Positions 23,384 to 34,518 of a DNA stretch of 56,481 nt are shown here, piece after piece. Position 1 is the first letter of the stretch. Each line of letters begins with the position of its first letter. Origin of the DNA: Candidatus Hodarchaeota archaeon (lineage in GTDB: Archaea; Asgardarchaeota; Heimdallarchaeia; Hodarchaeales; Hodarchaeaceae); the NCBI GenBank assembly GCA_016839815.1, contig JAEOTM010000033.1:1-56481 (forward strand), given 5' to 3'. A program made the translations under genes and the position numbers. The notes beneath the pieces were generated by a model. That model saw nothing but the letters and a program-made list of their open reading frames with translations. It ran no database searches and was not told the DNA's origin.

Positions 23384-24181
23384 TCAGATTAACTTTTGTA
23401 CTGTATCAGGTGTAGGTTTAAAATATTCTCCTCGCTTTAATGCCCTATCGATGGCTTGTTCTACCAAGTTGTAATTAACTCCCTTTTCATTTGCTAAAGC
23501 CCGTAATTTGGATAGTTCAAATGGTTCACTACCAATAGCATCCAGAATTTTATCCAAATCCGTTGTTTTTTCACTTAAATAGCGATAACTCTGTTTAATT
23601 TCTGGTACTTGCTCCGATTGAATCGTTTTTTTCTCAAGTGAGGTTTTAATTAGTGCTTCAATCGAATCACCAGGATTTTCTGCTTTATCTAAATAACAGT
23701 CGAGATGCGAATATTTATTCGAGATAAATCGTCTTCCATCATCCAATTCAATCAGTGTTGGTTCTGCAACCCTTATAGTTCCTTTCTCAATTTTTTCTTC
23801 ACATTGCTTACATCTCCCACGTGAACTTTTTGCATATTCTAGAAGGGGATTCTGTACAGGTTGCTCAGATTTCAATTCATTCGAAGGTTTCTTCTCCATT
23901 AGTTGATTAAGCGAGGCAAGTATCTGAGCTCGTAAATCTGGATCAGCATTATCTTCTTCCTTTGTTAGGAATGAGATAACATTTTGCATCTCATAACGAG
24001 GAGTACAGTTCACGTGATAGTACCGATAGGAGGTAATTACTTCCCCTTTGGGAGTGGTGAATGGAAAAGGGATCCCTATCCTAGGATCATCCTTGATTAT
24101 ATTTTCCTGACACCCCCGACATTTAGATCTTCCTGACTTTGCATTTTCTACTTTTGGACGCTCTAATCTTTCACCTGACAT
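23384..24181 (-). CDS. Tandem PARP-type zinc finger protein with a C-terminal winged helix
   Basis: Two ExAKSxRxxCxxC...HxxC fingers (C21/C24/H56/C59 and C124/C127...HLDC); C-terminal AIDRALKRGEYFKPTP. Confidence 0.85.
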   Translation of the reverse strand: MSGERLERPKVENAKSGRSKCRGCQENIIKDDPRIGIPFPFTTPKGEVITSYRYYHVNCTPRYEMQNVISFLTKEEDNADPDLRAQILASLNQLMEKKPSNELKSEQPVQNPLLEYAKSSRGRCKQCEEKIEKGTIRVAEPTLIELDDGRRFISNKYSHLDCYLDKAENPGDSIEALIKTSLEKKTIQSEQVPEIKQSYRYLSEKTTDLDKILDAIGSEPFELSKLRALANEKGVNYNLVEQAIDRALKRGEYFKPTPDTVQKLI

Positions 24182-24281
24182 TCTTAACCATATCTGTGAA
24201 AATTTTTACAGTAATACTCTGAATAACACTTAATGACATTAAAAATATTTCTCAAGCAGCAAGGATCAAATCCAAGGAAAA

Positions 24282-25235
24282 TCAAGATAAGAATGTGAAA
24301 CGTGTAGTCTTTATATTGCTTGAAATTGAACCAGGAGGCGAGGAATATAGTTTAGTTGCTTTTATAAACTTTTCAAGATTATTTGTTATGAATGTGATCA
24401 TTTCGGTTTTCAAAATATCAAAATCATACAGATCAGGAATAATATAGGTAAAAAATACGAAGATCTTATCGTAACACTTGAAATGCCAGATCACAGAATC
24501 ATGTAACCTTTTTGCTCCTATTAAAGTCAAATTTTCACGATATTTCTTCATCAAATATTCTCTCTTGATATATTGAGAGATAGAATTTAGTAAAGGATCC
24601 GCAACTCCCTGTAATTCTTGTTGTTTTGCAGTAGAAAATAAATAATTGCCTTGATCATCGTAAACAAGAATAAATGACACAAATTCAGCTAGATCAATCT
24701 TAATCTTACTCAATATATGCTTGTATATTGCCGCATCTTCACCTAAGGGCCCTCCCATTATCTCCTCAAAATTTCGCTCCCAAGAGTCTGTTTCTGGTAA
24801 ATTTGTATCTGTTTGAAAAGGAACATATTGACTTAATAGAGTTCCAGGGAGTTGTTGAAATTCTGGTGTTGTAGACATTGAAAGAAGACTTATACCACTT
24901 TCAGCCTTCGCATAGTCGACATAGATTGGTGAATTCGGCTTATCTGTCAAAGGGGTTAATGTTGGTTTAATTATATCTTTGAGTTGAATAATTGCTTCAA
25001 GTAAGCCTGAAATAAGAACGATATTCTCATTATTAGCTCGAGTAGAAGGTGTATCTTTGTATGTAATATCACCAAGCTCATTTACTTGCACAAAACGAGT
25101 ATAAACTGGCAAACCTCCCTCATCAGACAGAATAACTAGTAAATCCGATCCACGAAGTGATTTTGATTCCAAAAGTATGGCTTTTTCCTTCTTCGATCTG
25201 AGGGAGGATAGCTCACTAATTGGGTTTTCCTTCAA
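24282..25235 (-). CDS. Putative tandem longin/roadblock-like domain protein
   Basis: LLVILSDEGGLPVYTRF...LISGLLEAIIQL and FILVYDDQGNYLFS...LLNSISQYI both follow the longin b1-b2-aA pattern. Confidence 0.5.
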   Translation of the reverse strand: MKENPISELSSLRSKKEKAILLESKSLRGSDLLVILSDEGGLPVYTRFVQVNELGDITYKDTPSTRANNENIVLISGLLEAIIQLKDIIKPTLTPLTDKPNSPIYVDYAKAESGISLLSMSTTPEFQQLPGTLLSQYVPFQTDTNLPETDSWERNFEEIMGGPLGEDAAIYKHILSKIKIDLAEFVSFILVYDDQGNYLFSTAKQQELQGVADPLLNSISQYIKREYLMKKYRENLTLIGAKRLHDSVIWHFKCYDKIFVFFTYIIPDLYDFDILKTEMITFITNNLEKFIKATKLYSSPPGSISSNIKTTRFTFLS

Positions 25236-26520: not shown

Positions 26521-27453
26521 TTGTTAGAAACTCTCTTAATTGATCAAGGCGTCTTAAGTACCTCTGAAAGGAGAAAATTGTTATGTATGCCTGATGATAC
26601 TTTTTTTAGGACTCATAAACATAAGCTTTACAGAGAGTTTCTTGGATTTCCACGCTATTCAGTGATTTCACGCAAATACACAGAGGAATTTAACAAAGAG
26701 AATGATTCGACCTGTTCATTAGATTCCCTTTTTATTTGTGATGGGGCAACTGCACAGAATTCTGCACAATTCTTTTTTCCAATAGCAAAAAAGCTAAATC
26801 TATCCATTATCGGGACCAATCTCGATTTCACAGAACTTCCAAAGTTACGTTTTGAATCACAATTAGCAAAAGAAGATTTTGAGCCATTTGCTCCATATTC
26901 GTTACTTACGGATAAAAATACACATCCTACAACCACTCAAGGGCATGATATTGATGCTTGTACAAGTTTTTTGCCTACTTCAAGCAAATTATCAATAGAG
27001 AAGGGTAATGACTATCCAGCAGAACATAAAATCGCTACAGGGGCTATTAAGGATTCTAATGAATTCTTCCCTAGACATTTTAATATCGCTCGCTTAAATA
27101 TTGGTGATTTTGTAGAATATCGCCAAATCTTTACTCGTAATTGGCCTGATATGGACATGAATACACAAGAAGTTAAGAACTTGATTCTTCAAGAGGTAGA
27201 GAAGGTACTTTCAGCATTTAGTGTTGAAATTTTACATATCTCACTCTATAAGCTAGCTCGGTATTATAAATTGAGTGAGAAAACGAATAAATCCGTTGTA
27301 GAGCTCACAGATGAGATGAAACACTCTTGGAACTATACAGAATCTCTCTTAGTTCATAATCCAACACGTAGAATATGGGAGGAAGAACCCATTCATGCGT
27401 TGCAACACTTTTTTAACACACCAGGGTATTTAATTTTATTTAATCCATACTGA
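26521..27453 (+). CDS. Hypothetical protein, possibly a degenerate class I (CheR-like) methyltransferase fold
   Basis: DTFFR...LFICDGATA...IIGTNLD...FNIARLN order loosely matches SAM-MTase motifs. Confidence 0.4.
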   Translation: MLETLLIDQGVLSTSERRKLLCMPDDTFFRTHKHKLYREFLGFPRYSVISRKYTEEFNKENDSTCSLDSLFICDGATAQNSAQFFFPIAKKLNLSIIGTNLDFTELPKLRFESQLAKEDFEPFAPYSLLTDKNTHPTTTQGHDIDACTSFLPTSSKLSIEKGNDYPAEHKIATGAIKDSNEFFPRHFNIARLNIGDFVEYRQIFTRNWPDMDMNTQEVKNLILQEVEKVLSAFSVEILHISLYKLARYYKLSEKTNKSVVELTDEMKHSWNYTESLLVHNPTRRIWEEEPIHALQHFFNTPGYLILFNPY

Positions 27454-27578
27454 TGGTGAATTGGTAGTTTTTTTATCAGACTTCATCATTTCTTTCACAA
27501 CAGATATTAGATCAATCATTGGTAAGTAATATATCTAAAAAATGAAAATATACTACTGTTAGAGAGGTGGAACTAAAG

Positions 27579-28094
27579 ATGGAAGTTGAACCCCTTAAGA
27601 TGGAAGAGATAATTCCGACTATTGAACGAGTGAAAAATACCATTGTATCAATGGAAAATAATCTAAGTAAGGCCCAAAAGGAATTAGAGGAGAAAGAAAG
27701 TGCCCTGAGAGAGCGAGAAGATAAATTAAACCAAGCAAATCTACAAAAACAACAGCTTGAATTTGATTATATCTCACTCGAAACTGAATTTAAAAAAATC
27801 TCAGAGTTATTTAGCGAACTTTCTGGACAACAGGAAACCTCATTAGATATTAAGCAATTACTAGGAATATATATTACTCTATTAGAAAAGGTTTTTACTG
27901 GTAAGCCGCATGCAAAGATTCTTTATCTCTTACACGGTGATAAAGCCGAGATGACTCGTGAAGAGTTAACTAAAACCACTGGTTTTTCTGCAGCAATCGT
28001 TCTTCATTCCCTCCACGAACTTCATCGGGCAGAATTAATTAATTATGATGAAGAGAAAGGAATGGCCAACCTGGTGAATAGAATTTACGAATAA
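27579..28094 (+). CDS. Coiled-coil protein with a C-terminal winged HTH
   Basis: Heptad-rich N-terminal half; KILYLLH...MTREELTKTTGFSAAIVLHSLHELHRAELINYD; GAGGTGG SD. Confidence 0.7.
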   Translation: MEVEPLKMEEIIPTIERVKNTIVSMENNLSKAQKELEEKESALREREDKLNQANLQKQQLEFDYISLETEFKKISELFSELSGQQETSLDIKQLLGIYITLLEKVFTGKPHAKILYLLHGDKAEMTREELTKTTGFSAAIVLHSLHELHRAELINYDEEKGMANLVNRIYE

Positions 28095-33455: not shown

Positions 33456-34136
33456 CTACCAACGTTCTTGTTGATCTTGACGATCAGATCGTCCACGATA
33501 GCCTGAATTATCTCGACCTCGATAGGATCTTCCGCCACCATAGGACCGGCGTTGGCCACCACCACTACGGTCAAATTGTCTTCGTCGGCGTCTTCGATCT
33601 TCATGTTGTTCTTTGGATCGATCGTTTTCTGTGTTGACATCATCGAGTGAGATGACGCCTTCTGTGTCTTCAATTGAGCCCCATTTACCAAGTGCTAGAC
33701 GCATTTGGCTTTGAAATACATTAACATATCCGTTCTTTAGGACAAAGGTGCCTCCTTCAGTCACACGGTCGATAGTTTCATCCCAGAGTGTCAATGTAAT
33801 AGTTCCTGTTTCATCTCCTACCTTTAAATCGGCAAGATTGTGTTCTTCGTTAGTTTTCTTACTGACAATAGTTCTAGATTCGCCTTTTTCAACAACACAA
33901 AATGTTACTTGAAGTTTTCTTTCGAAAGGAGCCAGATCACTGATTTTCATCACATTGAGAGGTTCTTCTGCCTCCTGTGGGCTTTCAGAGGGAGTTTCAG
34001 TCACTTCGGAAGCTTCAGCTTTTTCTGATTCTTCAGCTTTTTCTGATTCTTCAGCTTTTTCTGATTCTTCAGCTTCCTCAGTTTCTTGAGATTCTTCTTC
34101 CTCTTCATTTTCTTGAGATTCTTGATATTCGGTCAT
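33456..34136 (-). CDS. ssb: Single OB-fold ssDNA-binding protein (crenarchaeal SSB-like) with acidic N-tail and Arg/Gly-rich C-tail
   Basis: MKISDL...VGDETGTITLTLWD...KNGYVNVFQSQMRLALGKWG. Confidence 0.85.
   Translation of the reverse strand: MTEYQESQENEEEEESQETEEAEESEKAEESEKAEESEKAEASEVTETPSESPQEAEEPLNVMKISDLAPFERKLQVTFCVVEKGESRTIVSKKTNEEHNLADLKVGDETGTITLTLWDETIDRVTEGGTFVLKNGYVNVFQSQMRLALGKWGSIEDTEGVISLDDVNTENDRSKEQHEDRRRRRRQFDRSGGGQRRSYGGGRSYRGRDNSGYRGRSDRQDQQERW
34013..34075. repeat. Perfect 18-bp tandem repeat (3.5 copies) encoding EESEKA in the SSB N-tail
   Basis: CTTCAGCTTTTTCTGATT at 34013, 34031 and 34049, plus a partial copy at 34067. Confidence 0.95.
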
Positions 34137-34518
34137 TTTTCTCACGATAGTTTGATATGGTACACGGAATATTTCTGATGCAAAAAACCGGAAAAAAGCT
34201 TATTCTTTCCCGTAATGCAAAACAGAGGTAAATTCTGTGTTATGTATGCGAAAAAAAACTAAAATATTAAGCTTTTGTTATTTAATGCATAAAACCTTGG
34301 AACACATATTAGAATTGCAGAAATTCACAATTTAAACCTTTTTTTGGTTTAAAAAGCAAATACTACTGTATTAAATAACCATCATAGATGTAAGGCAACC
34401 AAAAACTTATATCTAATCGAGAATAGTAACTTAAACAAAAACTAAACTTCGTAAATGATTCTATGCTAGAAGAAATAAATTTTCAAACTCTTTTTTCAAT
34501 TGGAAAATTGGTATTATA

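What the first reader, a model, noticed from the sequence alone, without database searches (positions are those of the whole stretch)
23384..24181. Archaeal protein with tandem PARP1-like Zn1-Zn2 fingers fused to a winged helix: candidate DNA-break sensor
Seen: finger 1 reads VENAKSGRSKCRGCQENIIKDDPRI...YYHVNC and finger 2 reads LEYAKSSRGRCKQCEEKIEKGTIRV...YSHLDC; their first Cys residues are 103 aa apart. Knowledge (recalled): human PARP1 Zn1 is [24 protein letters not shown] and Zn2 is [24 protein letters not shown], with nearly identical spacing. The DNA-gripping arginines (R18/R34 and their Zn2 equivalents) are conserved here. There is no catalytic ART or ligase domain. The C-terminus (AIDRALKRGEYFKPTPDTVQKL) instead resembles MCM/RPA32-type C-terminal winged helices, which are protein-recruitment modules. 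Inference: a stand-alone nick/break sensor that recruits a partner, possibly related to the origin of the PARP1/LigIII sensor module.
Basis: partly seen in the sequence, partly recalled or inferred. Interest (0 to 1): 0.85.

Follow-up and report, generated by a model that had tools for sequence, protein, structure and literature searches.

The report
Asgard PARP-type fingers with helicase-like tail
An archaeon from the lineage close to eukaryotes has a small, enzyme-free protein with two PARP1-type DNA-break-binding zinc fingers and a helicase-style protein-docking tail; it probably links damaged or gapped DNA to the replication machinery, but it is not the direct ancestor of PARP1's finger pair.

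Summary
Observation confirmed. The 265-aa minus-strand ORF has two zf-PARP fingers (Pfam 86 bits, cut-off 39) and a C-terminal winged helix. All eight zinc ligands and four DNA-contact-position arginines are invariant in 27 relatives. It is a conserved Hodarchaeales gene (19/21 congeners). No PARP catalytic or WGR domain was found in 83 class genomes. The winged helix is MCM/Rpa2-type, and its closest paralogue is the genome's own MCM tail. It gives only weak predicted binding to the Orc1/Cdc6 initiator (0.56, controls 0.00). Related Asgard proteins carry RPA/SSB OB folds between the same fingers, which supports a role at nicks, gaps or ss/ds junctions. The 'PARP1 origin' claim weakens. Bacteria have many stand-alone tandem zf-PARP proteins. 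A spacing near 100 aa recurs in unrelated lineages. PARP1's F44/D45 are not kept in position. In two trees the eukaryotic Zn1 and Zn2 group together, apart from these fingers. DNA-break binding is inferred, not shown. The scan already reported this family on another genome (e1-5444095). Verdict: new architecture of a known domain, moderately interesting.

The parts
23384..24181 (-). Gene for the 265-aa zf-PARP / zf-PARP / winged-helix protein
   Evidence: 19/21 congeners carry two zf-PARP matches
23894..24157 (-). Finger 1 (aa ~9-96): C21, C24, H56, C59; R18, K30, R34 invariant; hairpin F41 (26/27)
   Evidence: Pfam match 23960-24148; Z 9.4 to PARP1 Zn1; conservation
23573..23848 (-). Finger 2 (aa ~112-203): C124, C127, H159, C162; R121, K133, R137, L146, R150 invariant
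   Evidence: Pfam match 23675-23839; Z 8.5 to PARP1 Zn2; conservation
23387..23572 (-). C-terminal winged helix of MCM/Rpa2 type (aa ~204-265)
   Evidence: VIA Z 8.6 Rpa2-WH, 8.0 MCM-CTD; profile hits own MCM tail at E 3.7e-10, reciprocal 6.2e-8; best PDB profile hit 2m45
24237..24253 (-). Conserved upstream motif GAGAAATATTTTTAATG, BRE/TATA-like; probable own promoter (inference)
   Evidence: Same or nearly the same 17-mer upstream in L039, L045 and L052 within otherwise diverged spacers

Best explanation
It is a non-catalytic DNA-structure adaptor. Inferred steps: (1) the two zf-PARP fingers, joined by a flexible linker, grip the phosphate backbone without sequence preference and cap exposed bases at nicks, gaps or ss/ds junctions with their hydrophobic hairpins; (2) the tethered MCM/Rpa2-type winged helix then docks a replication or repair protein, with Orc1/Cdc6, primase or PolD as candidates by analogy. 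Signalling would be by physical recruitment or competition, not ADP-ribosylation. The tandem arose independently of PARP1's Zn1-Zn2 pair, within an Asgard family that shuffles zf-PARP, OB-fold and winged-helix modules. Shown: domains, conservation, distribution. Inferred: DNA binding, break preference, partner.
For: Invariant zinc ligands and R18/R34/R121/R137 in 27 relatives; R18/R122 form PARP1's phosphate grip (PMC8150716). The linker (aa 100-108) has low pLDDT and pTM is 0.48, consistent with independently moving domains. OB folds are partnered with the same fingers more than once: one congener has an SSB OB inserted between them, 58% identical to the window's SSB and 61% to its own intact ssb; another family has an RPA1-like OB there. 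The winged helix is homologous to MCM and Rpa2 tails across the class, and those tails are protein-docking modules: Rpa2-WH binds PriSL and PolD, MCM-WH binds Orc1 (PMC11686378, PMC12141716). Its net charge is near neutral, -6 to +3. Predicted complex with the main Orc1/Cdc6: weak support, 0.56 against best control 0.00, runs agreeing in 100% of contacts, partner pLDDT 86; 58/80 solved and 2/110 mismatched pairs reach the mark, but passes at or below 0.60 were 7 true and both false ones. No PARP catalytic or WGR domain found in 83 class genomes.
Against: No binding data exist. PARP1's base-stacking F44 aligns with Pro (22/27) and L151/I154 are not kept in register. Finger 2 is often net acidic. 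The Pfam match covers only model positions 1-63 and 1-55; the helical half diverges. Winged-helix fold matches are tied with DNA-binding types (DprA 8.4, ZBP1 8.2). The conserved neighbours (dph2, GDSL hydrolase, UbiA, Xer recombinase) include no break-repair gene.
Confidence: 0.6

Rival explanations
1. Narrower version: the winged helix mimics the MCM tail and binds Orc1/Cdc6, so the protein either recruits the initiator to breaks (restart) or competes with MCM loading when DNA is damaged (a simple checkpoint).
For: Closest paralogue is the own MCM tail, reciprocally; best PDB profile hit is the S. solfataricus MCM tail, reported to bind Orc1-1 (PMC12141716); weak predicted complex, 0.56 against best control 0.00.
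Against: The pass is in the weak band, and close cousins of a true partner also pass, so it may show only likeness to MCM. The 63-column tree cannot separate MCM from Rpa2 ancestry (AU p 0.42 and 0.50). Primase and PolD were not tested.
Confidence: 0.25
2. It is a general chromatin or transcription protein: fingers and winged helix all bind intact DNA, with no break specificity.
For: PARP1 also binds undamaged DNA (abstract of PMC6135609); winged-helix structural hits include regulators and Z-DNA binders at similar Z; F44 not conserved in position; no repair genes nearby.
Against: By sequence the winged helix matches replisome tails, not regulators, and is not consistently basic; repeated fusion with ssDNA-binding OB folds points to discontinuities.
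Confidence: 0.15
3. The protein is a surviving orthologue of the ancestral PARP1 Zn1-Zn2 module (finger 1 = Zn1, finger 2 = Zn2).
For: Spacing 103 versus 104, same residue numbers for R18/R34/H159/C162, one continuous alignment at E 2.8e-12; Hodarchaeales are close to eukaryotes (own knowledge); AU does not reject Hodarchaeales plus eukaryotes as a clade (p 0.32) or F2 with Zn2 (p 0.12).
Against: Eukaryotic F1 and F2 form a starred clade without these fingers in two trees (98/88 and 97/90); F1 with Zn1 is rejected marginally (p 0.047); mean identities show no pairing (F1: 26% to Zn1, 29% to Zn2; F2: 26% and 27%), and single-finger Asgard proteins are closer to eukaryotes (30-35%); spacing is 88-132 in eukaryotes, 83-125 in bacteria and 98-99 in OB-less relatives.
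Confidence: 0.1

Closest known systems
Human PARP1 Zn1-Zn2 (PDB 2n8a, 4av1, 3od8, 3odc)
   Same: Two zf-PARP fingers in tandem, same CCHC ligands, same grip arginines, similar spacing
   Different: No Zn3, BRCT, WGR or catalytic domain; F44 and D45 not kept in position; longer hairpin; divergent helical half; no finger-for-finger orthology; ends in a winged helix
Bacterial stand-alone tandem zf-PARP proteins (~180 aa; Myxococcota, Planctomycetes, Obscuribacterales)
   Same: Two fingers, no enzyme domain; top Atlas structural row
   Different: No winged helix; spacing about 91; each finger forms its own clade; no study of them found in the papers searched
Archaeal MCM C-terminal winged helix (2m45) and Rpa2 winged helix (9f27, 9f2a)
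   Same: Same fold and detectable sequence homology, same C-terminal position
   Different: Attached to zinc fingers, not to an AAA+ or OB core; partner unknown
DNA ligase III finger and plant ZDP
   Same: zf-PARP used as a nick-sensing module without ADP-ribosylation (own knowledge)
   Different: Those carry the repair enzyme in the same chain

Membership tests
zf-PARP (PF00645) | Score above gathering cut-off | tested here: met
   86.2 versus 39.3 bits; each finger 45 bits
zf-PARP (PF00645) | CxxC...HxxC ligands and PARP finger fold | tested here: met
   Invariant in 27 relatives; Z 9.4 and 8.5 to Zn1 and Zn2
PARP1-type break sensor | Phosphate-grip arginines | tested here: met
   R18, R34, R121, R137 invariant
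PARP1-type break sensor | Base-stacking F44 and activating D45 of Zn1 | tested here: not met
   Aligned positions are P44 (22/27) and K/D/N45; conserved F41, L146 and F152 may substitute
PARP1-type break sensor | Preference for nicks or ends | not testable with these tools
   Needs binding assays
PARP1 family | Zn3, WGR and catalytic ART domains | tested here: not met
   Absent from the protein. Catalytic domain 0/83 class genomes, no positive control rang; own-genome HMM best E 0.17; WGR 0/83 with controls ringing
PARP1 family | Finger 1 orthologous to Zn1 and finger 2 to Zn2 | tested here: inconclusive
   Not recovered in either tree; AU p 0.047 and 0.123; only 79 columns
MCM/Rpa2 C-terminal winged helix | Fold and sequence homology | tested here: met
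MCM/Rpa2 C-terminal winged helix | Descent from MCM rather than Rpa2 | tested here: inconclusive
   Profiles favour MCM (6e-8 versus 2e-3); tree unresolved
MCM/Rpa2 C-terminal winged helix | Binds Orc1/Cdc6, primase or PolD | tested here: inconclusive
   Orc1/Cdc6 weak support 0.56 versus best control 0.00; the others were not tested

The most novel reading that the evidence does not exclude
Hodarchaeales couple DNA-break recognition to replication licensing without enzymes: PARP-type fingers bind a nick or gap while a borrowed MCM tail engages the Orc1/Cdc6 initiator. It would be one member of an undescribed Asgard family of zf-PARP/OB/winged-helix adaptors from whose pool the eukaryotic PARP1 and ligase III finger may derive.
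Probability: 0.2. Interest if true: 0.8.

Novelty: new variant of a known kind. Interest (0 to 1): 0.52.

Why it matters
The break-sensing finger of PARP1 and ligase III is usually treated as eukaryotic, and a survey found no PARPs in archaea (PMC4245714). About a quarter of the 400 phylum genomes searched carry the finger, in at least five architectures, and no catalytic domain was found in the 83 class genomes searched. That makes it testable what the finger did before it was joined to ADP-ribosylation. This small protein is an easy test case, and an Orc1/Cdc6 link would be a new way to couple damage to replication initiation. Interest is limited because bacteria have similar tandems, NCBI already names a homologue 'PARP-type zinc finger-containing protein', and the origin question stays unresolved.

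Tried and rejected
Literature searches for Asgard or Hodarchaeales with zf-PARP or PARP found nothing relevant; the library lacks most subscription papers, and Samson et al. 2016 was not held. No RNA holder was listed for the region. The ESM Atlas feature search gave no usable hit. A search for longer fused forms returned only two eukaryotic PARP1s, which is weak evidence. My first idea, that the congener's OB fold is an ancestral remnant lost here, was rejected: it is a recent ssb duplicate and scores poorly against the other family's OB profile. The claim that the winged helix is simply a copy of MCM's tail could not be fixed by a tree. AU tests could not separate Asgard from bacterial affinity of eukaryotic fingers (p 0.42 and 0.28); the eukaryote plus single-finger-Asgard test did not finish. 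The nesting of bacterial finger 1 among Asgard fingers did not recur. Bacterial gene neighbourhoods, read by eye, showed no repair genes. One macrodomain gene exists on another contig, as in many archaea, so it is not evidence of a partner.

Full report
Observation. The window has a 265-aa ORF at 23384-24181 on the minus strand with the quoted motifs. Pfam zf-PARP scores 86.2 bits against a cut-off of 39.3, in two stretches, each passing alone. The best solved-structure matches are human PARP1 Zn1-Zn2, by sequence (2n8a, E 2.8e-12) and by fold (E 1.2e-10) of an AlphaFold model with mean pLDDT 82.8, a poorly ordered linker at aa 100-108 and pTM 0.48. First cysteines are 103 aa apart. Changes concentrate at third codon positions, and a BRE/TATA-like 17-mer is conserved upstream in three close relatives.

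Organism and distribution. Close homologues are labelled Hodarchaeales or Hodarchaeota. Across 400 genomes of the phylum, 101 have a zf-PARP match; 19 of 21 congeners have two. In most congeners examined the gene lies near dph2, a GDSL hydrolase and a Xer recombinase gene, as here. This is a stable lineage gene with no sign of recent transfer, but its neighbours say nothing about repair.

The fingers. In 27 relatives all eight zinc ligands, R18/K30/R34 and R121/K133/R137 are invariant. R18 and R122 are PARP1's phosphate-backbone grip; F44 stacks on bases and D45 relays activation (PMC8150716). Here F44 aligns with proline and D45 varies, which fits a protein with nothing to activate; other hairpin hydrophobes (F41, L146, F152) are conserved and could stack instead (inference). 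Pfam covers only the first 55-63 of 87 positions, so the helical half differs from the eukaryotic type.

The tail. Residues 203-265 are a winged helix; top matches are tied: Pyrococcus Rpa2 (Z 8.6, rmsd 2.0, 61 aligned), DprA 8.4, ZBP1 8.2, Sulfolobus MCM 8.0. Sequence is more specific. A family profile finds, in the own genome, the MCM C-terminus (E 3.7e-10) and then an Rpa2-like protein (E 0.0017). Across the class the hits I inspected were MCM, then Rpa2. An MCM-tail profile returns this gene second (E 6.2e-8), and the best PDB hit is the MCM tail 2m45. A tree cannot decide between MCM and Rpa2 ancestry. Both tails are docking modules: Rpa2's binds primase and PolD, MCM's binds Orc1 (PMC11686378; PMC12141716). 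I folded the winged helix with the genome's best-scoring Orc1/Cdc6, next to the PolD small-subunit gene: weak support, 0.56 against best control 0.00, runs agreeing in 100% of contacts, partner pLDDT 86. In calibration 58/80 solved and 2/110 mismatched pairs reached the mark, but at 0.60 or below only 7 solved ones and both mismatches; cousins of true partners also pass. It is a lead only.

A modular Asgard family. Other architectures are finger-OB-finger, finger-OB, finger-winged helix, and an unknown domain plus one finger. The OB in the finger-OB-finger family is RPA1-like (profile hit E 3.3e-18 to the own RPA1). One congener has an SSB OB inserted between the two fingers; it is 58% identical to the SSB in this window and 61% to that genome's own intact ssb, so it is a separate, diverged insertion and not an assembly artefact. 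Two independent pairings with ssDNA-binding folds are the best contextual evidence for work at gaps or ss/ds junctions.

No enzyme partner found. PARP catalytic domain: 0/83 class genomes (no positive control rang) and nothing in the own genome with a profile built from eukaryotic PARP1s (genome 89.5% complete). WGR: 0/83 with controls ringing.

Relation to PARP1. Stand-alone tandem zf-PARP proteins are abundant in bacteria: 255 hits at E 1e-10 or better, named ones from Myxococcaceae, Planctomycetes and Deltaproteobacteria, plus Obscuribacterales loci. Spacing medians are 102 (this family), 103 (eukaryotic PARP1, range 88-132), 91 (bacteria) and 98-99 (OB-less relatives of the finger-OB-finger type), so about 100 aa is one domain plus a linker. 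In two single-finger trees the eukaryotic fingers form a starred clade (98/88, one unassigned protein outside; 97/90) that excludes both Hodarchaeales fingers. AU tests: finger 1 with Zn1 p 0.047; finger 2 with Zn2 p 0.12; Hodarchaeales with eukaryotes p 0.32; eukaryotes plus Asgard against bacteria p 0.42; eukaryotes with bacterial finger 1 p 0.28. Mean identities show no finger-for-finger pairing, and the single-finger Asgard type is closest to eukaryotes. Caveats: only 79 columns, unsettled bootstraps, no root, and most eukaryote or bacterium labels were my reading of unannotated sequences. An independent duplication is likely; an Asgard source of the finger itself is open.

Prior work. No paper on Asgard zf-PARP proteins was found in the held library. 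This scan reported the same family on another genome (e1-5444095), which prompted the MCM test, and noted the sister architectures.

Verdict. A real, conserved Hodarchaeales gene with a new combination of known modules. It most likely works as an enzyme-free adaptor between DNA discontinuities and a replication protein (0.6). It is not a PARP and probably not the orthologue of PARP1's finger pair. Interest 0.52.

Noticed in passing
window 33456-34145 (-): Crenarchaeal-type SSB (Pfam Ssb-like_OB) with an acidic N-terminal extension and an Arg/Gly-rich tail; its orthologue is the source of the OB insert in the congener G064. Two more SSB paralogues and a GNAT-like protein fused to an OB fold exist in the genome.
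   Followed up: partly
L033:4991-6115 (+): Congener with finger-SSB OB-finger-winged helix, 372-375 aa, in a rearranged neighbourhood.
   Followed up: yes
L003-L032, L048:4733-6785: Widespread Asgard protein with an unannotated ~150-aa N-terminal domain and one C-terminal zf-PARP; its finger is the most eukaryote-like (30-35% identity). Better candidate for the source of the eukaryotic finger.
   Followed up: partly
L034:3693-5531 (+); P0128; P0145: Further Asgard architectures: a degenerate finger on a 613-aa unknown protein, an unannotated N-terminal domain plus finger in Hodarchaeales, and a second finger-OB-finger type.
   Followed up: no
P0135, P0150, P0038, P0078, P0146: Long (930-1030 aa), probably bacterial proteins with two or three zf-PARP fingers, one with ankyrin repeats; the rest has no Pfam match.
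   Followed up: partly
window 24282-25235 (-), 26521-27453 (+), 27567-28094 (+): Three conserved genes without a Pfam match above cut-off, syntenic across the genus between this gene and the Xer recombinase; the last is a coiled coil plus a winged-helix-like end.
   Followed up: no
L167, L168 (G000 C78 and C206): Two ATP-dependent ligase-like open frames of 651 aa, one scoring far lower (31 versus 129 bits).
   Followed up: no
L130-L133: Four Orc1/Cdc6 paralogues; one beside the PolD small subunit, another directly upstream of a GINS-like gene and mcm.
   Followed up: partly
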